A stretch of DNA of 64,000 nucleotides, counting the filler, from Chrysochromulina tobinii (Eukaryota), in the NCBI GenBank assembly GCA_001275005.1. It is 6 parts of 6 records of this genome, joined end to end, with 100 filler letters (N's around TTAATTAATTAA, not from the genome) between each part and the next. Parts side by side here need not be neighbours in the genome. Positions count along the whole stretch, not along the records: positions 1 to 21,761 come from JWZX01001297.1; 5 more parts are not named here. The stretch is one strand, 5' to 3'. The notes under the pieces are model-generated. The model was not told the origin of the DNA, ran no database searches, and saw only the letters and a program-made list of their open reading frames with translations. The position numbers and the translations under genes were made by a program. Within the stretch, counting starts at the first letter, position 1, and each line of letters begins with the position of its first letter. This document shows positions 8,477-57,845 of this stretch, one piece after another.

Positions 8477-8740
8477 TTTCTAGTGACTGTGAATGGATTG
8501 TGAATAGGTATGGAAATCGAAGGGGAGGGGGGGGAGGGGGGGGGGGAAGAATCCTTACAGGGAGTCCGGGGACCTGCGTTCACGGCGCGTGTTGTTTTTC
8601 ACATCGCCTTTTCGATTTTGGGATGAGTTTTCTCTTCCTCTCGCTCTAGTCTCCGCTTCTGGCTCCGTGCTCCAACTAGGCTCCGGCCCGTGCTGCATTC
8701 CCGCGTCCAGAATCCTCCGTATTTCTGCGGGCGTGGGAAG

Positions 8741-11700
8741 ATGAAAGTGGCCATGTGCATCCTTCTAGCTTGGGTGGTTGGGTCGAGCGAGGGCAATGAC
8801 GATTGGGATGAACCCGTCGCAGATCAAGAAGATCCGGGCAGAGGAGCGCGAGCGGAGTGTCGCTGTCAGGCGCGCCTGGACGTGCAACTCGTGGTACCTT
8901 TGCTTCTCGAGCGCGATCATCGCCATCGCCTTCATCCACCCGCTCCTTTCATCGACGGGCTGAGAAAGGGCATGCGCCAGGACTTTGAGATCGCGTTCGA
9001 GGAGCTCTTCATCGAGGGCAAGCTCTGGGACGCTGGCGTCAAGTCCTCGTTCCCGTACGGCCAGACGAATGCGAACGAGGACGCTGCGGGCGACGGGCCC
9101 GTCGAGGAAGCGGCGAAAAGGGACGGGATACCTTTGCGGTGGGTGGAGCGCTTCGACGGCGGCGCACTCGTGCTGCTCTGGCTCGGGTTGCTCGGGTTCA
9201 TCTTTGCAGTTTGCTCGGAGCAGGATCGGTCCAGCCGGAACAAGCGCTTCGCAATTCGGTCGAAAACCAATCGCTCCCACCGTAACAAGTGGTTCGAACT
9301 GGCCTTGCTCGCGCACATGGTCCCGCGCGTCGCCGACGCACAGAGCGCCTACTTTGCCGTCACCTCTGGCCGTTGCACCGTCGATCCGAGCGCGTGGAAC
9401 TGCATTCGCTCGCCCAACTTTCCGTATGATTACGTCAACAGTCAGACGTGCTCCATCACGCCGACTGCGCTCGCCATTGGAAGGCCTTTGACAGCGACCT
9501 CCTTCATTACGGAGTCTTGTTGCGACTACCTCCGCATACCTAGCCACCCGTCGGGGACGTTGACGGCGTTCTCAGGATGGACCGGACCTTCCAATTTCAT
9601 CTTGGGCCCGGGGACGATCCAATGGTCTTCAGACAGCAGAGTCACCCATACCGGCTGGCGAGTGTGCGCGGGCTCGGCGGGCTCGGCGGGCTCGGGCGGG
9701 ATCGCTCGACTTGTGGAGCTCACTCGCAGCGGCAGCGCGGTGGAAAAGGAGAACGCGGCGGCGGAGCTGTCGACCCTTGCCTACAACAACGCCGACAACC
9801 AAGTGGCGATCGCGCGCGCGGGCGGGATCGCTCCACTCGTCGAGCTCACTCGCAGCGGCAGCCTGGTAGCGAAGGAGAAGGCGGCGGGGGCGCTGTGGAC
9901 CCTTGCCTACAACGCCGACAATAGAGTGGCGATCGCGCGGACGGGCGGGATCGCTCCACTCGTCGAGCTCACTCGCAGCGGCAGCGCGGTGGCGAAGGAG
10001 AAGGCGGCGGGGGCGCTGTGGAACCTTGCCGTGAACGCCGACAACAAAGTGGCGATCGCGCGCGCGGGCGGGATCGCTCCACTCGTCGAGCTCACTCGCA
10101 GCGGCAGCGCAATGGCAAAGGAGCATGCGGCGGCGGCGCTGTGGAACCTTGCCGTGAACGCCGACAACAGCGTGGCGATCGGGCAGGCGGGCGGGATCGC
10201 TCCACTCGTCCAGCTCACTCTCAGCGGCAGCGCGGTGGCAAAGCAGAACGCGGCGGCGGCGCTGTGGACCCTTGCCTTGAACGACGACAACAAAGTGGCG
10301 ATCGCGCAGGCGGGCGGGAACGCCAACGACCAAGCAGCGATCGCGCAGGCGGGCGGGATCGTCACACTCGTCGAGCTCACTCGCAGCGGCGGCGCGGCGG
10401 CAAAGGAGCAGGCGGCGGGGGCGCTGTGGGTCCTTACACGGAACGCCACGAACAGCGTGGCGATCGCGCGCGCGGGCGGGATCGCTCCACTCGTCGAGCT
10501 CACTCACATCGGCAGCGCGGTGGCAAAGGAGAACGCGGCGGGGGCGCTGTGGAGCCTAGCCTTGATCGACGACAACAGCGTGGCGATCGCGCGCGCGGGT
10601 GGGATCGCTCCACTCGTCGAGCTCACTCACATCGGCAGCCCGAGGGCACAGGAGAACGCGGCGGGGGCGCTGTGGGTCCTTGCACGGAACGCCGACAATA
10701 GAGTGGCGATCGCACAGGCGGGCGGGATCGCTCCACTCGTCGAGCTCACTCGCAGCGGCAGCGCGGAGGCAAAGGAGAAGGCGGCGGCGGCGCTGCGGAA
10801 CCTTGCCGTGAACGACGACAACAAAGTGGCGATCGCGCGCGCGGGCGGGATCGCTCCACTCGTCGAGCTCACTCGCAGCGGCAGCGCGGTCGCAAAGGAG
10901 AAGGCGGCGGCGGCGCTGTGGAACCTTGCCGTGAACGACGACAACAGCGTGGCGATCGCGCAGGCGGGCGGGATCGCTCCACTCGTCGAGCTCACTCGCA
11001 GCGGCAGCGCGGTCGCAAAGGAGAAGGCGGCGGGGGCGCTGCGGACCCTTGCCGTGAACGCCGACAACCAAGTGGCGATCGCGCAGGCGGGCGGGATCGC
11101 TCCACTCGTCGAGCTCACTCGCAGCGGCAGCGCGGAGGCAAAGGAGAACGCGGCGGCGGCGCTGCGGAACCTTGCCGTGAACGCCGACAACAGAGTGGCG
11201 ATCGCGCAGGCTTGTGGGACACTCGTCGAGCTCACAGCGGCAGCGGGGGCACAGTTTTGGGGCTTGGTTCTGGTTTGCTTGCTTCTGGCTTGCTTCCCGC
11301 TGATGCATGCCTGTTGTTGCCTGCCAAAAAACCCGCCAGTGAAGATAGTCAAAGTTGCAGATGAGGAGGGGGAAAACACAGAATTGCTTCCAGTCGGGAC
11401 TGCCAGGAGCAACGCCGGGCATGCCATCGCGCCTCCACCGAGGTGGGACAAGGCGGCAGCAGAGAGGGCGCTGCCTCTGCCACTGATTGCCTTGCCCCCT
11501 GCCATCTTTCTCGACGTCCCTTTTCAAGTTGTGCGTGCCCTCGTGCTTCCTGATTGCTTGCGACGAAGCGCCGTGCTGGGCACCACGTGCTTTTCACTGA
11601 GTATCCTACTGCCCTGCCATTTCGAGGTCGACCGTTCTCAAGCGCCAAGTTGTGCGTGCTCTCGCGCTTCCACAGGGGCGAGGCAGAGCGGCGCGAGGCA

Positions 11701-13149
11701 GAGCAGCGCGAGGCAGAGCGGCGCGAGGAAGAGCGGCGTGAGGCCGAGCGGCGCGAGGCGCAGCAGCGCGAGGCAGCGCGGCGCGAGGCAGAGCGGCGCG
11801 AGGCAGCGCGTCGCGAGGCAGAGCGGCGCGAGGCAGAGCGGCGCGAGGCAGAGCGGCGCGAGGCAGAGCGGCGCGAGGTGCAGCAGCGCGAGGCAGAGCG
11901 GCGCGAGGAAGAGCTGCAACGCGAAGCGGAGGCCGCGGCGGAGGAGCTGCGGCGCCGAGCAACGGCGCTGGGGCTACTGCAGGTGCTCACGAATGCCGGC
12001 GTCGCCGACGACGCGACGTTGAAGAAGTCGATCGCGTGGTGCGACGAGGAGGGCGTGACGAACGTCTCCGACATTGTCAAGCACAAACTGGTCGACAAAT
12101 TTGTTCTCCATCTCGGCCTGAAGAATGTCCCCGGCATGGAGCTGCGCAGCTTGTTGCAACGCGCCCCGATGAGCAACCGCGGCTGGCCGAGCATCCCCAG
12201 CTGGTTGACGTCGTTCGGACTGCCGGTCGCGGGGAACGGGGCTGCCGACGAGAAGTATCAACGCGCACTGCAGGAGGACGGCTTCGCCCTCCGGGCTCTT
12301 CTGCCGGGGACCGATAAAAGCACGCTAAAATCGCTCGAGGCGCTGCTCAAGATAGATCGCCCAAAGTGGCTCGGCAAGGGCAACGACGTGTCGAAAACGT
12401 ACGGCCCGTATGACAAGCTGAAGCTCGCGTGTGCGTGGGAGGTCAACCATCCACTACTGCGATCCAAGTACACGGCCGGCTCACTCACGGTGCAGCAGGA
12501 GCTCAGGCAGCTTCAGAATAGGGGCAAGGATGTCACCACTGTGCCCGGCCTGCCCGTGAAGACGGCTCGCGTGCGCGGCTTCGAACTCTCGGAGGATTGC
12601 AATGAGGTCATTCTCTTGCATGGCGTCAACCGAGAGAAGCTGTTTAACCTGCTGTCTACGGGCCTGAACGAGCGCTTCGCCGGCATCGGTGCGGGCGCCG
12701 CCTTCGGCGCCGGCGTCTACCTCGCGGAGGACGCTGGCAAAACGGATCAGTACGTCAGCGCTGATAGCGCGTACGACCCGAGCAGTGAGCTGCACAAGCG
12801 GCTGTATGACGAAACCATGCCCCACCCGGAGGACGTCTTCTACGTTCTCGTGGTGCGCGCCGCCCTCGGCTTCCCCGTGCGCACGCAGCATACGGGCGAG
12901 GGGGCCACCTCGATGGACAATGAAGCGCCCATCTTCCCCGTCGCCTACCGTGAGCTCTCGGCGGTGCCGGGCGTCAATCCACCAATCTTCCACCATTCGC
13001 TGATTGCCGAGCTGGGCAAGGATATCGTGCGCTACCGCGAGTTTGTTTTCTTCCACTCCGACTACGTGCACATCGACTACGTCATCGCCTACCACCGCTA
13101 CAATGGCGACCAGAAGCTGCGCACGACAGTCTGTCCCGTATCTGTGTGA
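8741..13149 (+). CDS. Two-exon receptor-like protein: signal/TM - CUB - armadillo repeats - TM - coiled coil - SAM-like - PARP/tankyrase-type ADP-ribosyltransferase (exons 8741-11442, 11676-13149)
   Basis: CUB (CIRSPNFP..Y..C.I, F.TESCCDYLRI, WSSD.VT..GW); 12 full ARM repeats; TM FWGLVLVCLLLACFPLM; GT 11443...CAG 11675 joins the ORFs in frame; ART motifs NEVILLHG, FGAGVYLAEDAGKTDQY, HHS, YREFVFF. Confidence 0.8.
9695..11236 (+). repeat. Tandem array of ~123-nt units encoding 41-aa armadillo repeats (12 full, 1 internally deleted, 1 partial)
   Basis: Near-identical DNA scaffold GCGGGCGGGATCGCTCCACTCGTCGAGCTCACTCGCAGCGGCAGC repeated. Confidence 0.95.
11443..11675 (+). other. Phase-2 GT-AG intron joining the ARM ORF to the ART ORF
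   Basis: CCG AG|GTGGGA ... TTCCACAG|G GGC rebuilds the AGG (Arg) codon and moves into the ART frame. Confidence 0.75.
11680..11910 (+). repeat. 15-nt coding minisatellite (GAGGCAGAGCGGCGC)n, EAERR charged helix
   Basis: Direct tandem repeat of about 15 units. Confidence 0.9.
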
Positions 13150-13604
13150 GGCTAACTAGCAAGCATGGCAAGTTCTAGGCGCCGGCCACCGGCCCAGGTT
13201 ATGCGTGCGGGAGAGTCGGGAGCATAGCATGCGGTCCATGGAGCCGGCAGCCGGGACGTCGGTCGGTCGCGTGTGACGGCGAGCGTTTCCTCTCACGGAC
13301 ACCCGACCGCGGACCGGTCTCGCCGCGTAGTCCGCGGTCGTGGAGAAATAAAAATATCCTCTAACTGGTGGGTTCCAGCGCGATAGCGCTTGATTGGTTG
13401 TCTTCAGGGGAGAACGACGTCAAGGGCGGCAGGCGCAACAGCTCGACGTGAGCTAGATGCGCCGGCCGGGCGGGTGATAGAAACGGTCAAATTATGGGGC
13501 GCACGTCAATTGGGCGCATTTGCATGTAATCCATGAGTGCCGGCCAAAATGCATACTGTACTTACCAAATCGGGCAGAGCGTTCAGAACGTCGTGACGTC
13601 ACGA

Positions 13605-14561
13605 TCACGTCGCCCGAAGCGCGTCGCGCATTGTGTCCTGGTCAGCGGCTCCGCCGCGTTTGTCGTGCCGCGACTGGCGCCAGAAAAAGGCCGTCCCTTG
13701 CTCGGCTGTCTCGTGGGGCACTGCGCCAGCGAGGGGCGGCGCGGCTTCTTCCCATCCGTCGGCCGCTCGCAGCCGTCGGTTGACGGTCACCACGACCGTG
13801 TCGGCGGGCAGAGCGCTCGCGGCGAGCGCTGCGGAGAGCCGCTCGACATGCACGCCGTCAGAGGACTCGAATTTCGTGGCATACGCGTACACGACGGCGG
13901 CACCGGCGCAGGTCGTCTGCAGGGTCGCAAGGTCGTAGATGCTCCCGCGCACGGCGATAGCACGGGCGAGGGCCGGGTCGCTTGCACTCGCGATGGCGTA
14001 CGCGGCCGCTCCGATAGCATGCAATTCGGGCATCAGCTCGAGTGACGTGCATGCGCCACCCAGACGCACCGGCTCTTCTCGCGCAGCCGCAAGGGCCAGT
14101 GACCCCTTGCCGCCGCCGAGATCGCAAAAGCTGCGACGTGAGCCGGCGACCGGACTCACGAGGGCGAGCGCGGTTTGCAAGCACTGTAGGAAGAAGGAGA
14201 GGTCACTCTCTCCATAGATGAACTCGTCGCCGCCGTACGCATCGTCGTCGTCGTCAAGTGAGTCCATCGGCCTCGCCAGGGCGGCACCATCTTCGTCGTG
14301 GGCATCGATGGTGTCGTCATTATATGCCTGCGCATCCGTCTCCGGAAAGAGCACTGCCTCGTAGTCGATGGCATCGTAAGTAGCGGCGAGGAATTCTTCG
14401 CAGCTGAGCAGTGCAGTCCCAGCACATATGAGAGTCGATCGGCTGCTCAAGCTGATGGATTTGCGACCGCAGAGTGGCAGTGGCGAACATCGAGTCGGCG
14501 GCGGCGCGCTAGCTGGCGTCAACCAGCCGCTGACCGTCGTCGCGAATGCGAGAGCAATCAT
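13605..14561 (-). CDS. Class I SAM-dependent methyltransferase (DOT1-like), probably plastid-targeted
   Basis: IYGE...F, FCDLGGGKG (motif I), SLELMPELH, VRGSIYD; signal peptide plus Ser/Pro-rich leader. Confidence 0.75.
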   Translation of the reverse strand: MIALAFATTVSGWLTPASAPPPTRCSPLPLCGRKSISLSSRSTLICAGTALLSCEEFLAATYDAIDYEAVLFPETDAQAYNDDTIDAHDEDGAALARPMDSLDDDDDAYGGDEFIYGESDLSFFLQCLQTALALVSPVAGSRRSFCDLGGGKGSLALAAAREEPVRLGGACTSLELMPELHAIGAAAYAIASASDPALARAIAVRGSIYDLATLQTTCAGAAVVYAYATKFESSDGVHVERLSAALAASALPADTVVVTVNRRLRAADGWEEAAPPLAGAVPHETAEQGTAFFWRQSRHDKRGGAADQDTMRDALRAT

Positions 14562-14654
14562 TTCTTTTCAGACCAAAAAGATCGGGTGCTCGACTCGACG
14601 CGACCTGAAAAACACCAAACGCGCATGTTGGCACACGACGCCCGTTACACGGTC

Positions 14655-15569
14655 CTAGTACTTGAATACCTCGGCCTCGTGGAAGCCCGCCTCGGCAAGC
14701 AGCCCCGTGAGTGGCCCCTGGATCTTGGGCCCCTTGGAGCCATCGGCCTTCTTTGGGCCACGTCCCGTCTTGCCGCCCCACGTGTCCACGAAGCCATCTG
14801 TGCCGCACACGAAGATCATCGTCATGCCGTTGGGCGCGCCAGGCGGCGGCAGTGCGGACTGGATCATCGCCAATGAGCCACGCCCCGTGAAGCCGGGCCA
14901 GCCAGAGTACACGGGACCGGTGAGGCTGTAGGCCACCTGGAAGCGCTCCGGGTGCGCCGCGGCCATTGCGTCCAGCTCCGCTTTCATGAGGATGTCCTCT
15001 TCATGGCGATTGATGCTCAACATGCGCACCGTCGTGAGGTCGTGTGGGTCGTCGAGCACGATGCGTGCAATCTGGATGAGCGGCGCGATGCCCGTGCCGC
15101 CGCCTACGAGCCCGATGGCCCGCCATCGGCGGGTCACTTCTGCGCTGCCGTGCACCATGCGCTTCTTCTTCAGGGTCGCCTGCATGGTTTCACCAATTTC
15201 CAGATTGCAAATGAACGAGCCGACGCCACCGCCCGGCCTCGGCACGTACGCCTTGACCAGCAGGTCCACAACGCCCTCGAGCGCCGGGTGAGAAACGGGC
15301 GAGTAGCTCTTCTCGAGAACCGTTGGTGTACCAGCCTCGTTCGTACCGTCCGGGTATGCCACCGTGATGCAAGTCGGCAACGTCGGGTCCTCACCAAGGA
15401 AGCGTTTGGACGGCGGGAGCGAGAAGCGAAGCAGCCACGCGTCGGGACTCGTTCGAGTCTTGGAGAGGAGCGTGTATGGCAGTGGGCCGTCCACCGACGA
15501 GCACGCTGCCGTGCTCGTTGCGGCCGCCCGCGTCAGGGCGCACACGAGGACGCGCGAAGCTCGCCGCAT
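14655..15569 (-). CDS. NADH-cytochrome b5 reductase family flavoprotein
   Basis: KSYSPVS, DLLVKAY..GG..S, GLVGGGTGIAPLIQ, IFVCG, VFKY C-terminus. Confidence 0.92.
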   Translation of the reverse strand: MRRASRVLVCALTRAAATSTAACSSVDGPLPYTLLSKTRTSPDAWLLRFSLPPSKRFLGEDPTLPTCITVAYPDGTNEAGTPTVLEKSYSPVSHPALEGVVDLLVKAYVPRPGGGVGSFICNLEIGETMQATLKKKRMVHGSAEVTRRWRAIGLVGGGTGIAPLIQIARIVLDDPHDLTTVRMLSINRHEEDILMKAELDAMAAAHPERFQVAYSLTGPVYSGWPGFTGRGSLAMIQSALPPPGAPNGMTMIFVCGTDGFVDTWGGKTGRGPKKADGSKGPKIQGPLTGLLAEAGFHEAEVFKY

Positions 15570-15987
15570 GTGTGTGTCGTCAGCAATGGTTTTCTACCCA
15601 AAGTTCGTACCAAAAATATCGAGAGATACAATTATGAGCGTGGGGGACCGCATACCGGTAAAAAGACACCGGGGGGAGCCGGGACACACACGGGACACGC
15701 GGACGCACAAAGGCACACGGACCGCACAGACGAGCCTCACAACCATCCAAACCCACCAACAACACACAACCCGCACGTCAGCGCGACGACCAAAGCCGCG
15801 GCCGACCGCGTACGGTAGTCTGCCTGACTGTCAACAAGGGGCGCGCAAGTTTGAATTCAGAAGTGCCGATTTGGACAGCGCCCGTATGTATCATGCTGAA
15901 TTCCTAATATGGACCGCGTTACCGGTATTTGTCATGAAATACATCCGTCGGCGTCGGTGTGGCCGTGTGATCGTCCGCCCCTGTGCA

Positions 15988-17346
15988 ATGCGCTTCGTTC
16001 TGGTCGCATCTGTGGCTGCGACAGCGAGCGCGTTGCCGTGCGGCGCGCCGACGATCCTTGGCTTCTTCACGCCCAAGTGCGACGCGAACGGTCTGCTGCT
16101 CGCGCCCTTCGCCGGCGGCGTGCAGGAGGCGGTCGACCGCAGCGTGGCCTACTATGCGGCCGCGCCCTACGACCTGCCGCTGTCGCACAACTTCCAGCCC
16201 TTCGTCTGGGCCACATTCATGTCGGGCTTTGACTACTTGCCGACTTCATTGGACATCATCGCGGGAATGCAAGATGGCATGGGCCTGCTCAGCTACGTGA
16301 AGCTCTACAAGCGCGCCAAGGCCGGCCGCGGCGGCAACGCGACGGCCGCGCTTTCCGCCGCCGTTCAGCTCGGCGACTACCTCACAATCTGGGCGCTCAC
16401 GCCGGCACATGGCGTCTGGGCCAACGTCTCGCGCTCGACGGGCCTGAACATCGAGTGGCCGCTCAAGACCGCCTCGCAGGGCGATGCCGCCTTTGGCATC
16501 AACTGCATCGAGGTCGACCGCGTGGCCATGACCGCCTTCGCGCTGCTGCGCCTCTACGAGGCCGTGCCGACGCCGCGCTACCTCGCGCATGCCGTGCACT
16601 CGGCGCGCGTGCTCGCGGCCACACAAGTCGACGGCAACGCAACGGACGCGCCGTGGCCCTTCCGCGTCGACGCCGTCTCCGGTGCCTTTCTCAACGGCCA
16701 CAAGAACGGCGAGATGGCCTTTGCGCTGCGCCTCTTTCGCGCGCTCGCGGCGCCGCCTTACAGCATGCCCGAGTTCGCGCAGCCAGCTGCGCGGCTTTGG
16801 GCCTGGGTCCGCGACGTGCAGTTGCCCACGGCGCGGCCGGACGTAACGCCAGCAGAGTGCCTCTTTGTAAACTTCTTCGAGGACCGCACGACGACGCTCG
16901 ACAACAACCGCAATAGCTGGACGGCCATGGAGCTCGCGCGCCTGCTTGTCGAGGAGAAGGCGGCGCTCGACCCGGACTGGCAGGCGCACGTTGAGAGCAT
17001 CTTCGCGTACGTCCTTGCTCTCTTTGGCCACGCGTCAAACGTGGGCAATGCGACCATTGTGGGCGAGCAAGACGACGACAACAAGCCCTGGGGTGGTGCT
17101 AACTCGAAGCTCGCCGGCGTGGCCTCGCTCTACGGCTGCGCCTCAGGCAAGGCCGCCTTCAGCACACTTGGACGCCTGAACGCCTTCCACATGGCGCACT
17201 TCACCGATCCGACTGACGGAGGCCGCTCCGCAAACGCCTACGACGTCGACGTTGCGCCGACGCGCGGCGGGTGGACCCAGGATGCTTGGCTCGACGTGCT
17301 GCACAATCTGGTCGATCACCTCGAGGCCGAGGACGGCGTGTGCTGA
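15988..17346 (+). CDS. Secreted protein, probable alpha/alpha-toroid (six-hairpin glycosidase-like) enzyme
   Basis: Signal peptide MRFVLVASVAATASA; helical hairpin pattern ALLRLYEAVPTPRYLAHAV; PWPFRVDA motif. Function is inferred only. Confidence 0.5.
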   Translation: MRFVLVASVAATASALPCGAPTILGFFTPKCDANGLLLAPFAGGVQEAVDRSVAYYAAAPYDLPLSHNFQPFVWATFMSGFDYLPTSLDIIAGMQDGMGLLSYVKLYKRAKAGRGGNATAALSAAVQLGDYLTIWALTPAHGVWANVSRSTGLNIEWPLKTASQGDAAFGINCIEVDRVAMTAFALLRLYEAVPTPRYLAHAVHSARVLAATQVDGNATDAPWPFRVDAVSGAFLNGHKNGEMAFALRLFRALAAPPYSMPEFAQPAARLWAWVRDVQLPTARPDVTPAECLFVNFFEDRTTTLDNNRNSWTAMELARLLVEEKAALDPDWQAHVESIFAYVLALFGHASNVGNATIVGEQDDDNKPWGGANSKLAGVASLYGCASGKAAFSTLGRLNAFHMAHFTDPTDGGRSANAYDVDVAPTRGGWTQDAWLDVLHNLVDHLEAEDGVC

Positions 17347-17496
17347 AGCGCGCGAGGGAGAAAGTACAGAGAGTCAGTAGAGAGTCAGAGACCGTGTAGT
17401 TAACACCAGTATGCTACGCGCTCGACCGCTCCCAACCGGGCGTGTGCAGCGTGTACGGGTGATGCGGGTGGACGGTGGCGGGTGGTGCGTGTGCAA

Positions 17497-17653
17497 AGCG
17501 TGTATGGCAGTGGGCCGTCCGCCGCTGAGCACGCTGCCGTGTGCTCGGTTGCGGCCGCCCCGCGCCCGCGTCACCGGCGTCACGCCGGTCAGGGCTCGCG
17601 TAAGGGCGCGCACACGAGGACGCGCGAGAAGCATCCGACGCGTCACGCGCATG
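17497..17653 (-). pseudogene. Degenerate, insertion-rich copy of the first ~100 nt of the cytochrome b5 reductase gene (15469-15570)
   Basis: Shares AGCGTGTATGGCAGTGGGCCGTCC, GAGCACGCTGCCGTG, TTGCGGCCGCCC and GCACACGAGGACGCGCGA in the same order. Confidence 0.8.
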
Positions 17654-17726
17654 CACTGCCAGCATTGTGATGCATGCATCTGCATCCCAAATAGGATATG
17701 AATATAATAGTAGTTTGGTCTGATCG

Positions 17727-19139
17727 ATGATAGACATGCAGTCGAGACTCTACAGAGTCATCGCGAACCTCATCGTCCTAGCTTTGAGCGCCGCTGTTGC
17801 AGTCGCCACAGCCGTGTCCCTTGCTGCGACGCCCCCGAAGGATTGGCGGAATATACCAACGGGAGCACCGCGCCACCTAGTCGAAGGGGGTATCGGTGAT
17901 GCTGTCTCCGGAATGGTGCCAACGTTGCCAATGTTGCCAACAATGCCGATAGAGACTCTCGTCTACAAATGGGCCGTGCAGTACGCCCTCTCGACGGTCC
18001 TCTCGTCACAGTCGGGCGTGCGCGCCTTCACGCCGGCCCTCATCCTATCGCTCATGGCGATGGTCAATCCGGACGTCATCGAGCTCGACTCGAGCATGCA
18101 GTGGTTGCGCCATCCGGCCGCCGCCGCTGTGTTTTGTGTCCTCGCCGTGCTCGAGATCGTTGCCGAGTTTGTTCCTGCGGTCGACCACGTGCTGCACCAG
18201 ATCATGACCTTTGTGCATCCAGTCACTGGCATCATGATCGCGATTGCGCCCAAGCTCGGAGACGAGACCGTCACTGGCTTCGTGCAGGCTCCGATGGCCA
18301 TCTTCGATGGCGGCACGGTCGCGCTCATCTTCCACCTCATCAAGCTCCTGCTGCGCCTCTCCGGTTGCGGCTGCCTCTCGCCGGTCATCGCCGCCATCGA
18401 GACCACCGTCGTCGTGCTCGCCGTGCCTCTCGCCATCCTCTTCGGAGTGCTCGCGCTCGTGCTTGCCGTAGCGGTGCTGCTGGCCATCGTGCGCTGGCTC
18501 GTGCACACGTGCGTTCAGACGGGCCACGGGATTGAGGAGGCGCTCTTCGGGCCTCCGAACAACCCGGCGCGCCGCACTCTCAACTACATGCGGCGCGAGC
18601 ATCTCGTGCTCAATCTGGCGGTGCGGAGGCGTAACAAAGGGCTCGAACGCCCCGTGCGCGTCCTTCTACTCCTGGCCGTGCTCCTGTTCCAGCTGTACAT
18701 GGTAGGCGTCCTCGCGAGCGACGAGCTTCTCTCGCCACTCGGACGTGTGCTCCTCATCGCACTCGCTGCCATCCCGTTCCGCACCGCCTGTGTGCTCGTA
18801 CTCGGATGGGTGAGCCAGTGCGATCCGCCCGCCGCGCCACCAACGAAATCGTCGAAAGCGGACGAGCGTGATGGCGCCCCGACCTCGCTTTGTGCACAGC
18901 CGCGCGCCACGGTCGCCATCGTGCTCATCGTCGGGCTCGTCCTATGGCGCGCTGAGGTGAGGCTGGGTAGCGAGCACGTGCGCACCCCCGCCCAAGTGGG
19001 CGTTGACTACGTGTCCGCGATCGTCTTCGCGCTGTGCGTCTTCGAGCCGATGGAGCTCTTCGTGCTCCACCGCTGCTGCGGTAAGTGCTGCGCGTGCTGC
19101 TTCGATGACGGTGAGCTAGAGCCCCTCCTCTTAGCTTGA
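17727..19139 (+). CDS. DUF4126-like multi-pass membrane protein
   Basis: SGVRAFTPALIL...WL...LAVLEIVAEFVPAVDHVL...TFVHPVTG pattern; many TM segments; start uncertain. Confidence 0.7.
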   Translation: MIDMQSRLYRVIANLIVLALSAAVAVATAVSLAATPPKDWRNIPTGAPRHLVEGGIGDAVSGMVPTLPMLPTMPIETLVYKWAVQYALSTVLSSQSGVRAFTPALILSLMAMVNPDVIELDSSMQWLRHPAAAAVFCVLAVLEIVAEFVPAVDHVLHQIMTFVHPVTGIMIAIAPKLGDETVTGFVQAPMAIFDGGTVALIFHLIKLLLRLSGCGCLSPVIAAIETTVVVLAVPLAILFGVLALVLAVAVLLAIVRWLVHTCVQTGHGIEEALFGPPNNPARRTLNYMRREHLVLNLAVRRRNKGLERPVRVLLLLAVLLFQLYMVGVLASDELLSPLGRVLLIALAAIPFRTACVLVLGWVSQCDPPAAPPTKSSKADERDGAPTSLCAQPRATVAIVLIVGLVLWRAEVRLGSEHVRTPAQVGVDYVSAIVFALCVFEPMELFVLHRCCGKCCACCFDDGELEPLLLA

Positions 19140-21761: not shown

Positions 21762-21861
21762 NNNNNNNNNNNNNNNNNNNNNNNNNNNNNNNNNNNNNNN
21801 NNNNNTTAATTAATTAANNNNNNNNNNNNNNNNNNNNNNNNNNNNNNNNNNNNNNNNNNNN
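21762..21861. other. Artificial contig linker (44N-TTAATTAATTAA-44N)
   Basis: Identical 100-nt spacer with six-frame stops occurs five times. Confidence 0.98.
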
Positions 21862-26322: not shown

Positions 26323-26422
26323 NNNNNNNNNNNNNNNNNNNNNNNNNNNNNNNNNNNNNNNNNNNNTTAATTAATTAANNNNNNNNNNNNNNNNNNNNNN
26401 NNNNNNNNNNNNNNNNNNNNNN
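26323..26422. other. Artificial contig linker
   Basis: 44N-TTAATTAATTAA-44N. Confidence 0.98.
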
Positions 26423-27113: not shown

Positions 27114-27995
27114 AATGGCGATGGCGGCACCCGAGCGAGACGAAGCGAGGTGGAGGAGCTGGCCGCGGCTGCCGGCGCGAGCAGCAGCCCAGACGCCCAT
27201 CTCGATCGTGCCGGGAGGCGGCAGCGCCACTCGGCTCCTGCCCCCCCTGTGCGGCAGGTGGCACTGCAGCATGCCCTCACGCGCATTGGCGAGCGCGCTC
27301 CCACGACAGAACCGTTACCGCCCGAGAAGAATTGGCTTCGTCGCAAGGAGTTAGTCGAGGCACATGCGATCGGCGAGGACGAGAATGACCATGGGTTTGA
27401 GCACCAGTGGTTCACCGCCCGAGTCGTCTCAGTGGACCGAAAGAACTGCCACGCGTTGCTCGAGTTCGAGGAGCTGCTGAACGACGATGGGCAGAGCAAG
27501 CTCATGGAACGGATTGAGCTCTCGAAGATCCGCCCGATACCCCCGAGCGGCGCCGCCCAGGTATGCCTTGACGACTGCCCCTGGAAGCCGGAGAGGGGCT
27601 TTGCCAAGTCGGTGGACTCGGCCGAGTACGCGGCGCAGCTTGCGTGGGTCCGAAGTCTACCGATCGGCGCGGCCGTTGAATGCTACGCTGATGACGCGTG
27701 GTGGGCCGGCGTATGCATGGGAGAGGTTTCTGTCGACGAGGCCCGCGCCCACGCCGACGCGTACGAGGCGGCCGTGGCGGCGGCCGCTGCGGAGGACCCA
27801 GCTGCCCCGTCTCCCGACCGGCCCGACCCCACCAACGAGGGCCCTCACTTTTTAGTACGCTACTTTGTGGACCCGTCCGCTGACAAGTGGGGCGCGCCGC
27901 ACTTCGACCCGCGCTTCCTGCGGCCGCGGTGGGAGTTTGACGTCGACAAGACATTGTGGGAGCACGACGACGCGCTCTACGCGATCCTTGACTGA
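26423..27995 (+). CDS. Tandem Agenet/Tudor-like chromatin protein with acidic N-terminal region (5' partial)
   Basis: LVEA...GFEHQWFTARVV...LLEFEELLNDDG..KLMERI....IRPIPP and IGAAVECYADDAWWAGV...FLVRYF...LRPRWEF. Confidence 0.8.
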
Positions 27996-28243
27996 GAGAG
28001 AATTCTTCGAGAGAGTGTGAGAGAGAGAGATGCGCGGCTCGAGGAGAACTGGAGCGTGCAGAGAGAGAGAGAGAGAGCCCTGCGCCCACAGGCCTCAGGG
28101 CGGGTGAGTTTATGCGGACAGGCGTATGTTTCTTCACAGCCAATGTTTATAATTCGACACCCTCGACACCGGTTCGGGGCGGTTCGGGCAAGCGGCGGGG
28201 GGCGAAAAGGGCCGCTGCGAACGTTGGACGCGCAAAAGAGAGG

Positions 28244-31200
28244 ATGGTGAAGCCGGTGCAGAAGCAAGTACGTAACTCGTGGGGACCAGGCACCTCTGGC
28301 GGCTGCCCTCGCGTGCCCTCGTGGACGAAGAACCCGCAGTACCTCCTAACGCCGAGCGCGCCCGGCTCCTTCACGATCGTGCTCCGGTGCAATGCACAGC
28401 CGCTCCTGGACATTGGCTTCGTGGTGCTCAAGCAGCAGAGCGGCGACCGTGGCGGTCGCAAGACATCTCCAAAGGTGAGCAAGCGCGAGCTCGTGACTAA
28501 GACCACGTGGAAGCCCGTCGACGTGCAGACGGCCGAGGTGGACCTGCCGCCTCTGGCGAGCGGCGAAGCACTGGGCTACATCATCGTGCCGTGCACCTTC
28601 GACCCTGGCCACCAGGCGGCCTTTGAGCTGTCTGTCGCCTCCGTGGCCGGCGTCGCCTTCACGCTCACCGAGCTCCGCGACGACGCCGGCGCGCCGTCGC
28701 GTCCGGCGGTGCAGCCAGTGACTCTGACGGAGGCGAATGTCGCCGCCGCCAACGCGGCCAACGCCGCCTCGGGAGGGGTGCCGGCCAAGCTGCCCGCGGC
28801 CAAGGCGGCGGCCGCACCGGTCAGCGGTGGCGCGGCGGCAACGCCCTCCATCGCCAAGGCGGAGGTTCCGGTGGCCGAGAATGAGGTGCAGCCCATCTCG
28901 GAGGGCCAGGGCCTTTCTAAGAGGCAGCAGGCCGACGTGGCACGTCTCATCGCTGAGGCGGAGGCGGCGGCCGCGCAGAACGGTGGGCTGTTCGTGGACC
29001 CCAACTTTGTGGCGGGCCCGTCCTCACTCTGGGCGGACGGGCGCGCCCCGGGCGCCGAGCTGCGTGCGAGCGGGCTCCCGGCCGATCCCGTCATCGCGTG
29101 GCGCCGACCGTCCGAATTTGCGGCCGACCTGCCGTCAGGCTCGGGTGTGCCCCGGCTCTTCTCCGACGAGCGGAGCGGCGGCGTGAGCGGCGTGGTCGCC
29201 TCGGCGCTGCTCAACCACTGGCTCCTCGCCGCGTGCAACATCGTGGGCGGCGACCTGGGCGTGCTCGAGCGCGTCTTTGTCGACCGTTCACATGGCGCCC
29301 AGGGCTTCTATCTGGTACGCTATTGCGTGGACGACCCAAATTCGGACGAGCCGCCAGAGCTCTGCATGCATGTGCTCACCACGGCGCCTCGTCCCCCTCC
29401 CCACAGGTACGCTTCTACGTGGACGACCCAAAGTCGGACGACGACTGGCACGTGGTGATCGTGGACGACAGGCTGCCGTGCGGCAAGGACGGCCTTCCGT
29501 GCTTCGCGCGCACGCCCTCGCCCGCCGTGCTCTGGCTCCCGATCCTCGAGAAGGCCTTTGCCAAGTATAAGGGATGTTATGAGAAGACCGGCGGCGGCTC
29601 TGTCGAGGATGGACTTCTGTACCTGACTGGCGGCCTGTCCCGCGAAGTGGGCGTGTTGCCCTCGAATGACCCCGAGCTCGTGGACGCGCTCTGGGGCCAG
29701 ATGATGCAGTGGTGGCAGACTTCGCACGTCATCGGGTGCGAGCACCGCGTCGACGGCGAGCCGCCCGACGAGCTGACCCGAAAAGGGTTGCTCGCCAACC
29801 TGCCGTATTGCGTCATCGTGGGCGGCGAGTTCTACGGCCATCGGATGGTGAGGCTGCGCACCTTTTATGGCTATTCGGAGTGGCGCGGCAAGTGGGCCGA
29901 CGACGACCCGTCGTGGACCACGCAGATGCGCCAGCTGATGGCGTACCGTAACAATAGCGAGGACGGCACGTTCTGGATGGGCTTCGACGACTTCGTGCTC
30001 TGGTTCAACGTGCTCTTCACGTGCCGGATGGCCGACGACCGCTGGACGAAACTCACCATGCGCTCGCGCTGGCAGGGCGCGACCGCGGGGGGCTGCTGCC
30101 CCAACTTCGCCACGTGGCGCTGCAACCAGCAGTGGCTGCTCACCACCAAGCAGCCGCTCCGCCTCACCATCTCCCTGTCCGTGCCGGCTCCCTCGAGCGC
30201 GTCCACCACGGACCACGAGGCACTCTTCCCGCCCGAGGGTGCTCTAGGGATCACGATCCTCAAGGGCAACCCTGGCGCGGACGCCAAACGGCGCAAGCTG
30301 CTCCTCACCTCGGCCGACGAGCTCATTGTCCGAGCGGAGCCTCGACAGGTGCGCCGCCTCGTGCAGGACGTGACGCTCGAGCCGTCGGAGACGCCGTATG
30401 TGCTGCTGCCGCACACGTTCACACCAGGATGCGAGACTCCGTTCACGCTCGTGCTGCGCGCGGACGACGAGAACGACGACGGTCTTCCCGATTTCCATCT
30501 CGAGCCGGTGCGCCCCGAGACGGACTGGTACCAGAAGACGTTTGACGTAACCTGGGCGACAGCACTCGAGATTGTGTGCCAGCCCTCAGATCTTGCGAGC
30601 CCTCGAGACGATGGCAAGACCGCGGCGCTCAAGGCGGCACTCAGGCGTGATAAGCAGGCGGCGGGCGCGGACGACGACGACGACGACGACGATGGTAAGC
30701 CGGCCAAGCCCAATTTCGACTTCGGCGGCGCGCCGCCGGGCGGCCCGCCCAAATCGCGTGGCTTTGTGGCCAATCCTCAGATTGCCCTCAAGGCCGAGAA
30801 GGTGGGTCGCTTCTTCATAGTCGTCGATCAGCTTGGCGTCAACCTCGACGGCCGCATGAGCGAGGGCCCCTCGTCCGATATGTACCCCGAGGTGGGCGTC
30901 GCAGTCCTCGCCTCGGTCGCGGCGCTCGACGACGGCCGGCTGGACGACGGCGAGATCTTGCACGATGAGCGCGCTGCGGCTGACTCGGTCATGCTGGCGT
31001 GCGGTCTGGCCACCTCGGAGGTGGCGTACTGCGTGGTTCCCTACCTGGCCAGTCCGAAAAAGGCTCTCGCAGACCATCCCAACCTGCGCTGCCGCGTGTG
31101 CGTGTACGCTGACGTGCCCTTCACGCTCGACAGCGGCGCACCGAAGCTTGGCGCCGAGCACGCGATGAAAGAGGACGGCACGTGCACGTGCTGGAACCTG

Positions 31201-31365
31201 GGGAAGATGCCCGATCAGCAGAATGAGATGACGTGCCCCATTCTGCGCGTGTACAACTCGCTCAAGAAGATTGAGCGCGGCCTCGACCGGCAGCTCAAGT
31301 ACCTCGACACGCTCGCCCCCTTCCCGCGCGAGGCCGGCCTTGCCAACCGTGACACGAGCGGTTGA
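28244..31365 (+). CDS. Calpain-like protein (C2L/domain III - degenerate CysPc - C2L - C2L); exons 28244-29314 and 29407-31365
   Basis: WGPGTSGGC..W.KNPQY, FVDPNF, WRRP, VIVDDRLP, LEKAFAKYKGCY, EWRGKWAD, DGTFWM.FDDF; splicing restores GFYL|VRFY. Confidence 0.88.
29315..29406 (+). other. 92-nt phase-0 intron whose first 35 nt duplicate the next exon (family A tail)
   Basis: GT...CAG repairs the frame; 31/35 identity of 29315-29349 to 29407-29441; tail TGCATGCATGTGCTCACC...CCCCACAG. Confidence 0.9.
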
Positions 31366-45804: not shown

Positions 45805-45904
45805 NNNNNNNNNNNNNNNNNNNNNNNNNNNNNNNNNNNNNNNNNNNNTTAATTAATTAANNNNNNNNNNNNNNNNNNNNNNNNNNNNNNNNNNNNNNNN
45901 NNNN
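45805..45904. other. Artificial contig linker
   Basis: 44N-TTAATTAATTAA-44N. Confidence 0.98.
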
Positions 45905-48926: not shown

Positions 48927-49026
48927 NNNNNNNNNNNNNNNNNNNNNNNNNNNNNNNNNNNNNNNNNNNNTTAATTAATTAANNNNNNNNNNNNNNNNNN
49001 NNNNNNNNNNNNNNNNNNNNNNNNNN
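48927..49026. other. Artificial contig linker
   Basis: 44N-TTAATTAATTAA-44N. Confidence 0.98.
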
Positions 49027-57745: not shown

Positions 57746-57845
57746 NNNNNNNNNNNNNNNNNNNNNNNNNNNNNNNNNNNNNNNNNNNNTTAATTAATTA
57801 ANNNNNNNNNNNNNNNNNNNNNNNNNNNNNNNNNNNNNNNNNNNN
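57746..57845. other. Artificial contig linker
   Basis: 44N-TTAATTAATTAA-44N. Confidence 0.98.

What the first reader, a model, noticed from the sequence alone, without database searches (positions are those of the whole stretch)
9695..11236. ARM array with a frozen DNA scaffold and variation concentrated on helix-3 surface positions
Seen: 12 repeats of 41 aa share GGIAPLVELTRSGS..AKE.AA.AL..LA.N.DN.VAIA.A, nearly identical even at synonymous sites. Differences cluster at a few positions: K/N/H/Q, G/A, W/R/S, N/T/V/S, V/Y/L/R, and Q/R/K/S after DN. One unit is internally deleted (GG-NANDQAAIAQA) and variants recur in mosaic combinations. Established: the concave H3 face is the peptide-binding groove of armadillo proteins. 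Inference: unequal crossover or conversion shuffles specificity modules, like the hypervariable WD40/TPR/ANK arrays of fungal NLRs, giving a diversifying recognition system.
Basis: partly seen in the sequence, partly recalled or inferred. Interest (0 to 1): 0.8.

Follow-up and report, generated by a model that had tools for sequence, protein, structure and literature searches.

The report
Variable armadillo receptor with PARP tail
An alga carries genes for a predicted cell-surface receptor whose near-identical armadillo repeats differ mainly along their binding groove and whose tail is a PARP-type enzyme, likely a fast-changing recognition system, although this window's copy is probably two such genes joined by an assembly error.

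Summary
The array is real: 12 armadillo units plus a 13-residue remnant in one open frame, 88% identical in DNA, varying mainly on one face of helix 3 (the binding groove). The same pattern holds in 53 of 54 homogenised ARM arrays from other algae and an oomycete; this scan noted such arrays twice before on other DNA. Two corrections. First, the window's array is probably a chimera: other assemblies of the same clone hold two paralogs, A and B, and the window is A up to 10505 and B from 10404, switching in a 102-base shared stretch. Unit order here is not evidence. Gene B's start and one intron appear in RNA contigs. A third member comes from another metagenome. Related cytosolic arrays are fused to MLKL-N/kinase, HET, SIR2, ART and U-box domains. 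Best reading: a predicted surface receptor with a diversifying armadillo ectodomain and an NAD-consuming output. Positive selection is suggested, not shown (the whole gene runs near dN/dS 1); no ligand or phenotype is known.

The parts
8741..8794 (+). Predicted signal peptide (18 aa) of gene A; gene B has a homologous one directly in front of its ARM array
   Evidence: Read from sequence: basic start, hydrophobic core (mean hydropathy 2.8 in A, 2.3 in B over 10 aa), small residues at the end; in gene B an in-frame stop precedes the ATG and RNA contigs of two runs carry B's letters there. No signal-peptide predictor was available.
8795..9343 (+). Insert found only in gene A, with one hydrophobic stretch (9158-9214); exon structure unresolved
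   Evidence: No Pfam match; hydropathy 2.36; absent from gene B; RNA contigs of three of four runs give no cover at 9096-9269, which is no proof of an intron
9344..9676 (+). CUB-like domain (gene A only)
   Evidence: Pfam CUB E 0.034, below the curated cut-off; Atlas feature hits 0.90 to CUB clusters; a lead, not a firm match
9695..10474 (+). ARM units 1-6 and the 13-aa remnant (10313-10351): first half of gene A's array
   Evidence: Identical to L004 from 8600 to 10505 and the same units in L005, P0004, P0124
10404..10505 (+). 102-base stretch shared exactly by genes A and B, in which the window switches from A to B
10475..11212 (+). ARM units 7-12: last part of gene B's array
   Evidence: Identical to L002 from 10404 to 10942 and, after one extra unit in L002, from 10841 to 16971; to L001 from 10949 to 18116
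11264..11320 (+). Predicted transmembrane helix of gene B, ending in three cysteines and followed by lysines
   Evidence: Hydropathy 2.48 over 19 aa; counterparts in gene A, P0144 and L003
11443..11675 (+). GT-AG intron (233 bases) that joins the ARM/TM frame to the PARP frame
   Evidence: One RNA contig, depth 2, 27 letters on the short side; removal keeps the frame open to the stop at 13149; unspliced contigs also present; gene A and P0144 are open through this region without an intron
11676..11946 (+). Charged coiled-coil-like linker built on a 15-base repeat
   Evidence: Tandem repeat 11678-11914, translation
11947..12162 (+). Small five-helix domain, possibly SAM-like
   Evidence: Five or six helices at pLDDT about 72-87; 9 SAM domains among the top 50 structural rows, tankyrase-1 SAM Z 5.3, rmsd 2.8, 60 aligned, tied with unrelated helical folds; inconclusive
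12253..13149 (+). Tankyrase-like ADP-ribosyltransferase (PARP catalytic) domain; His at 12619, Tyr at 12718, Glu at 13039
   Evidence: Pfam PARP E 5e-9; closest solved sequences and folds are tankyrases; H225, Y258, E365 invariant in 36 of 36 aligned sequences

Best explanation
The array is the predicted outward-facing recognition domain of a small family of single-pass membrane proteins (signal peptide, armadillo array, transmembrane helix, coiled coil, small helical domain, tankyrase-like PARP domain) that likely serve a haptophyte alga as diversifying non-self receptors, and the window's copy is probably an assembly join of two members. Shown: domain order, intact H-Y-E, variation concentrated on the helix-3 face, homogenised scaffold, fine-scale mosaics, two paralogs in the same clone and a third member elsewhere. 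Inferred: frequent exchange between units keeps the scaffold uniform while groove residues change and are reassorted; binding of an outside ligand (viral, bacterial or other cell-surface protein) would cluster the receptor through coiled coil and helical domain and switch on ADP-ribosylation inside the cell, as a defence or cell-death signal. Odds by step: array and groove focus 0.95; window join is an assembly error 0.8; type I topology of gene B 0.7; groove under positive selection 0.55; defence role 0.5.
For: Groove entropy against tolerant non-groove surface positions: window 1.29 vs 0.59 bits, gene A 1.22 vs 0.60, gene B 1.06 vs 0.37 and 0.95 vs 0.35 (p 0.007-0.02); 53 of 54 homogenised arrays, 16 of 17 consensus clusters. 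Minimal-change count in the window: 22 nonsynonymous changes on 22.3 groove sites, 17 on 69 other sites. All four combinations at sites 4-8 bases apart (positions 30/33, 33/36, 36/37). Gene B starts signal peptide - cap - ARM after an in-frame stop, with matching RNA contigs in 2 of 4 runs. Transmembrane helix followed by cysteines and basic residues in A, B, P0144 and L003. P0144 has ARM-TM-helical domain-PARP with its own unit consensus varying at 30, 33, 36, 37, 40, 41. Related arrays fused to MLKL-N plus kinase, HET, SIR2, ART, U-box, GGDEF, RBR; the same PARP module fused to TPR/ANK, kinase, dynamin, ZNFX1-like helicase, TIR and other TM ectodomains. Join: all 8 full-length protein records with A's start end in A's tail, both contigs with B's tail start in B units.
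Against: dN/dS between the cytosolic parts of A and B is about 1.0 (0.62 in the catalytic core) and GC3 is 0.80-0.85, so the groove's ratio of about 2 (p 0.013-0.08) is not a safe sign of positive selection, and synonymous changes are also raised at groove codons. No single record shows gene B whole and intact: L002 has a frameshift inside the array and L001 lacks the start. The intron rests on one contig of depth 2, and unspliced contigs exist. Gene A has an extra hydrophobic stretch that would invert the topology if translated. Only 1 of 178 PARP-family hits checked carries ARM units (gene A records not counted), so the architecture is rare and may be a recent shuffle; a wild relative (L003) has lost the PARP domain. 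No ligand, phenotype or strain comparison.
Confidence: 0.55

Rival explanations
1. Neutral shuffle: a recently amplified ARM array from a cytosolic gene was spliced into a membrane-PARP gene in a genome full of reshuffled modules; the groove drifts because it binds nothing.
For: dN/dS near 1 over the cytosolic part and the signal peptide; patchwork insert in gene A; PARP module fused to many unrelated repeats; nearest unit consensus includes a U-box-ARM protein, P0182; L003 lacks the PARP domain.
Against: Surface positions that vary most in old arrays stay fixed here while the groove varies, in 53 of 54 homogenised arrays; drift would not pick one helical face. Frames stay open through 12-14 units, even across the 39-base remnant; catalytic residues invariant.
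Confidence: 0.2
2. Tankyrase-like substrate recruiter: the ARM array faces the cytosol or an organelle lumen and picks substrates or cargo for the PARP domain, as ankyrin clusters do in tankyrase; the variable groove tunes a housekeeping substrate range.
For: Closest catalytic domain is tankyrase; ARM repeats are normally cytosolic (own knowledge); gene A's extra hydrophobic stretch; only one N-glycosylation sequon in the array.
Against: In gene B one signal peptide and one transmembrane helix separate array and enzyme, so they would sit on opposite sides of the membrane; housekeeping recruiters are not expected to show homogenised, groove-variable units.
Confidence: 0.15
3. The window's join is real: an ectopic crossover between paralogs A and B made a new hybrid receptor in the sequenced culture.
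For: The join is in frame and in register inside a shared unit, as unequal crossover would give; the other assemblies are also short-read and disagree inside the array.
Against: Flanks are the same clone (1 mismatch over about 7,700 bases on the left, none over 7,168 on the right); 0 of 4 array contigs and 0 of 8 full-length protein records show this join; in four DNA runs A-only contigs lie at depth 41-47 and B-only contigs at 52-98 (a weak hint only); short-read assemblies are known to fail on such arrays (PMC12222747).
Confidence: 0.15
4. The whole pattern is an artefact of collapsed paralogs.
For: Unit order differs between assemblies.
Against: Variable units are carried without a difference on DNA contigs of 67-108 bases; the groove pattern recurs in unrelated lineages with their own consensus.
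Confidence: 0.03

Closest known systems
Highly internally conserved (HiC) WD40/TPR/ANK sensor arrays of fungal NLRs (het-d, het-e; PMC4986451, PMC12222747)
   Same: Near-identical tandem units, variable sites on the concave binding face, relatives fused to HET/MLKL-like effectors, unreliable short-read assembly
   Different: Armadillo units; no NACHT or NB-ARC domain; predicted membrane protein with the array outside; PARP output; positive selection and allelic length variation not shown here
Tankyrase (ankyrin clusters - SAM - PARP; architecture recalled, catalytic match)
   Same: Repeat binding domain, small helical domain and an H-Y-E catalytic domain whose closest solved relatives are tankyrases
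   Different: ARM instead of ankyrin; a transmembrane helix separates repeats from enzyme; repeats homogenised and groove-variable; SAM identity inconclusive
SARM1 (ARM - SAM - TIR; recalled, not tested)
   Same: ARM sensor ahead of a possible SAM and an NAD-consuming domain
   Different: SARM1 has divergent cytosolic ARM units and a TIR NADase; here the units are near-identical, predicted extracellular, and the enzyme is an ART
Ectocarpus ROCO-LRR and NB-ARC-TPR candidate receptors (PMC3341825, abstract)
   Same: Algal candidate immune receptors with shuffled, diversifying repeats
   Different: There each repeat is an exon; here the array lies in one exon, and the repeat type and signalling domain differ
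Designed armadillo repeat proteins and Vac8
   Same: Same fold and register; variable positions 30 and 33 are the designed proteins' peptide-contact positions Glu30 and Trp33
   Different: Natural, fused to an enzyme; the peptide-backbone-binding Asn37 (role recalled) is itself variable here (N, T, V, S)

Membership tests
Armadillo repeat proteins | Tandem 41-42 aa Arm repeats | tested here: met
   Pfam Arm E 5e-79; PDB matches to OR497, Vac8, beta-catenin
HiC repeat sensors (PMC4986451 definition) | At least 85% internal amino-acid identity over 100 aa | tested here: inconclusive
   Mean pairwise identity 0.78-0.84 over whole arrays, below 85%; the best 100-aa stretch was not scored separately
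HiC repeat sensors | Variable sites on the concave binding face | tested here: met
   register and PMC4756613 passages; no coordinates were mapped
HiC repeat sensors | Positive selection at those sites | tested here: inconclusive
   Groove nonsynonymous rate 1.7-2.2 times the synonymous rate (p 0.013-0.08), but paralog background near 1 and high GC3
HiC repeat sensors | Repeat number and order polymorphic between strains | not testable with these tools
   Only short-read contigs, apparently of one clone
NLR / STAND receptors | Central NACHT or NB-ARC domain | tested here: not met
   No such Pfam family in either reading frame of the gene or in P0144
PARP / diphtheria-toxin-like ART (H-Y-E clade) | PARP catalytic fold with His, Tyr, Glu triad | tested here: met
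   activity untested
Tankyrase | Ankyrin repeat clusters | tested here: not met
   ARM, no ankyrin family in the gene
Tankyrase | SAM domain before the catalytic domain | tested here: inconclusive
   Helical domain; SAM rows at Z 4.7-5.3 tied with unrelated folds
Type I membrane receptor | Cleaved signal peptide, one transmembrane helix, cytosolic signalling domain | tested here: inconclusive
   Hydropathy and flanking charges fit for gene B; no predictor or experiment; gene A ambiguous

The most novel reading that the evidence does not exclude
A new receptor class: cell-surface proteins that use a hypervariable extracellular armadillo solenoid, reassorted by exchange between units, to recognise viruses or other cells and signal through a tankyrase-like PARP; one branch of a wider, unreported algal and oomycete immune repertoire in which homogenised groove-variable ARM arrays replace the NLR sensor and are plugged directly onto MLKL-N/kinase, HET, SIR2, ART and PARP effectors.
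Probability: 0.35. Interest if true: 0.88.

Novelty: new variant of a known kind. Interest (0 to 1): 0.64.

Why it matters
How single-celled algae recognise their viruses and other enemies is largely open. These genes give concrete candidates with named variable residues and an assayable enzyme, and suggest that armadillo repeats are a fourth scaffold (after WD40, TPR and ANK) for conserved-yet-variable sensors, here possibly used outside the cell. They are also a natural parallel to engineered armadillo binders, varying at the positions that engineers target. The case is a warning too: short-read copies of such arrays can fuse paralogs.

Tried and rejected
No own genome was held, so paralogs were counted only from other assemblies. 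Reading unit order as biology was rejected: seven records of equal length (1414 aa) change at duplicated places together, as graph paths do. DNA contigs could not bridge the 102-base switch (none listed spans it), so they neither confirm nor deny the join directly. Lack of RNA cover at 9096-9269 did not give a convincing in-frame intron. SAM: no Pfam hit, no usable Atlas hit, no Foldseek match; absence is not evidence against. No relative of the PARP domain in viral contigs; neighbours are ordinary host genes, so an endogenous-virus origin was dropped. dN/dS between paralogs was meant to show purifying selection and did not. The control '19 of 93 divergent arrays' is partly circular, because the tolerant positions were chosen from 54 such arrays; the informative result is the reversal in homogenised arrays. 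The groove set was fixed after seeing the sequence, so only the other arrays are an independent test. No structure was predicted for the array and no complex was folded. Ten paper searches found no description of groove-variable ARM arrays or of ARM-TM-PARP proteins; subscription journals, figures and supplements were not seen.

Full report
Observation. The stretch 9695-11212 holds 12 armadillo units and a 13-residue remnant in one open frame (Pfam Arm E 5e-79). The 11 regular units are 88% identical in DNA and 79% in protein, with 79 of 123 bases invariant; pairwise pS is about 0.10, so the scaffold is homogenised rather than frozen. In the numbering of designed armadillo proteins (register; Glu30 and Trp33 named as peptide-contact positions in passages of PMC4756613; helix 3 as binding site in a passage of PMC10684580) the variable columns are 26, 30, 33, 36, 37, 40 and 4. 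My groove set (4, 26, 29, 30, 33, 36, 37, 40, 41) is recalled from the design literature apart from 30 and 33, and was fixed after I had seen the sequence. Independently of it, variability on helix 3 has a 100-degree periodicity (p 0.0045).

The window's copy is probably a join of two genes. A search with the array returned proteins that share the window's start and first units but end in a different membrane and PARP region. A DNA scan gave 5 loci. L004 and L005 (gene A) share the window's left flank and first seven units, then continue with other units; L004 ends in another tail and other downstream genes. L001 and L002 (gene B) share the last units and the right flank but begin with other units. 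The window equals A from 8600 to 10505 and B from 10404: a 102-base shared stretch. Flanks differ by one base in about 15 kb, so this is one clone. None of the 4 array contigs from it and none of 8 full-length protein records shows the window's join. In four DNA runs, A-only contigs have depth 41-47, a unit present twice in A 61-81, and B-only contigs 52-98, a weak hint that the halves differ in copy number. The other assemblies are themselves unreliable inside the arrays: seven 1414-aa versions change at duplicated places together and L002 has a frameshift. PMC12222747 (abstract and passages) reports the same failure for fungal arrays. I put the misjoin at 0.8 and a real recombinant at 0.15.

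What the genes are. Gene B (L002) begins, after an in-frame stop, with an 18-residue signal-peptide-like segment, a cap and about 20 ARM units. RNA contigs of 2 of 4 runs carry B's letters across the stop and start and link them to an ARM unit; DNA in those libraries is not excluded. After the array come a hydrophobic helix with cysteines and lysines behind it, a GT-AG intron seen removed in one contig of depth 2 whose removal keeps the frame, a charged linker, a five-helix domain and a PARP catalytic domain. The model of the cytosolic part has mean pLDDT 84.5; its closest folds and sequences are tankyrases, and His, Tyr and Glu are invariant in 36 of 36 aligned relatives. The helical domain may be a SAM: 9 of the top 50 structural rows are SAM domains but tie with unrelated folds. 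Gene A has the homologous signal peptide, an insert with a hydrophobic stretch and a CUB-like domain, 14 full units, three hydrophobic stretches and no intron; its topology is uncertain. P0144, from another metagenome contig and cut at its start, has ARM-TM-helical domain-PARP with its own consensus. The helical domain is 73% identical to a Chrysochromulina tobinii protein, so the host is likely a Chrysochromulina-like haptophyte.

Is the groove pattern more than surface tolerance? I took as control nine positions that vary most in old, divergent arrays. Groove entropy exceeds them in the window, in A and in both B contigs (p 0.007-0.02). Among 240 proteins (the best 120 of 376 and the best 120 of 553 hits), 173 had five or more units; 54 had mean unit identity of 0.6 or more, 93 under 0.45, and 26 in between were dropped. 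The groove exceeded the control in 53 of 54 (16 of 17 consensus clusters; two records are gene A itself) and in 19 of 93, the latter partly by construction. The homogenised arrays include named proteins of Chrysochromulina, Chrysophaeum, Aureococcus, Cladocopium, Effrenium, Pleodorina and Nothophytophthora. Of 33 scanned, partners include MLKL-N plus kinase, HET, SIR2, ART, U-box, GGDEF and IBR; TIR, trypsin and another PARP occur in three hits outside the 54. Only the window's family has a membrane helix between array and enzyme.

Mechanism of variation. All four combinations occur at sites 8, 8 and 4 bases apart (positions 30/33, 33/36, 36/37), each in two or more of four assemblies, too close for an assembler to invent; short conversion tracts or recurrent mutation must act. 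Counting minimal changes, the window has 22 nonsynonymous changes on 22.3 groove sites and 17 on 69 others; the groove rate is 1.7-2.2 times the synonymous rate (p 0.013-0.08 over four sets). Against reading this as positive selection: the cytosolic parts of A and B give dN/dS about 1.0 (0.62 in the core) and GC3 is 0.80-0.85, which inflates such ratios. The fourfold contrast inside the unit is firm; a ratio above 1 is not.

Reading. Most likely these are predicted type I receptors with a diversifying armadillo ectodomain and an NAD-consuming tail, part of a modular defence repertoire; the PARP module is also fused to TPR/ANK, kinase, dynamin, ZNFX1-like helicase, TIR and other ectodomains with membrane helices. 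Ligand-driven clustering and a defence role are inference. Rivals are a neutral shuffle, a cytosolic substrate recruiter and a real recombinant join.

Comparison and novelty. It works like the fungal HiC sensors (PMC4986451, passages; the word armadillo does not occur there) and the Ectocarpus candidates (PMC3341825, abstract) but is not an NLR, and it is not a tankyrase. A kinase with ten ARM domains is mentioned for Phytophthora without this pattern (PMC3019232, passages); the C. tobin genome paper has no occurrence of armadillo (PMC4580454, search listing); PMC11228518 (passages) did not give the position numbers. Ten searches found no description; supplements and figures were not seen. This scan noted groove-variable ARM arrays twice before on other genomes, none with this sequence or with a PARP tail. 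Verdict: real feature, unreliable local assembly, new variant of a known kind; interest 0.64.

Noticed in passing
L003:1-1230: A relative from another metagenome has ARM units and a membrane segment but no PARP domain, yet keeps the family's last residues and a 3' region 89% alike to window 13118-13477: a possible enzyme-less decoy or deletion allele.
   Followed up: partly
window 8809-8964 (+): A 51-codon frame with a hydrophobic stretch overlaps the start of gene A's insert in another frame; the insert looks like a patchwork of gene pieces.
   Followed up: no
proteins P0145-P0177, P0297-P0440: A tankyrase-like PARP module is a mobile C-terminal unit in this lineage, fused to homogenised TPR repeats plus ankyrins, 78-aa repeats, kinases, dynamin, ZNFX1-like helicases, TIR and ectodomains with membrane helices.
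   Followed up: partly
proteins P0014, P0039 (Chrysophaeum taylorii), P0071 (Pleodorina starrii), P0181 (Chrysochromulina): Homogenised ARM arrays fused to MLKL-N plus kinase, to HET and to SIR2: NLR-like sensor-effector proteins without a nucleotide-binding domain.
   Followed up: partly
window 9500-11800 (DNA runs X2, X4, X6, X8): Gene B contigs lie at roughly 1.5-2 times the depth of gene A contigs; gene A may be on one haplotype only, or gene B duplicated.
   Followed up: partly
window 27992-31365 (+): A calpain-like gene lies in two overlapping frames (intron or frameshift).
   Followed up: no
window 21762-21861, 26323-26422, 45805-45904, 48927-49026, 57746-57845: Assembly gaps come as pairs of 44 N around 12 bases; the window is a scaffold of several contigs.
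   Followed up: no
window 9536-9667: The CUB-like module has several paralogs in the same DNA runs, one followed by a proline run.
   Followed up: no
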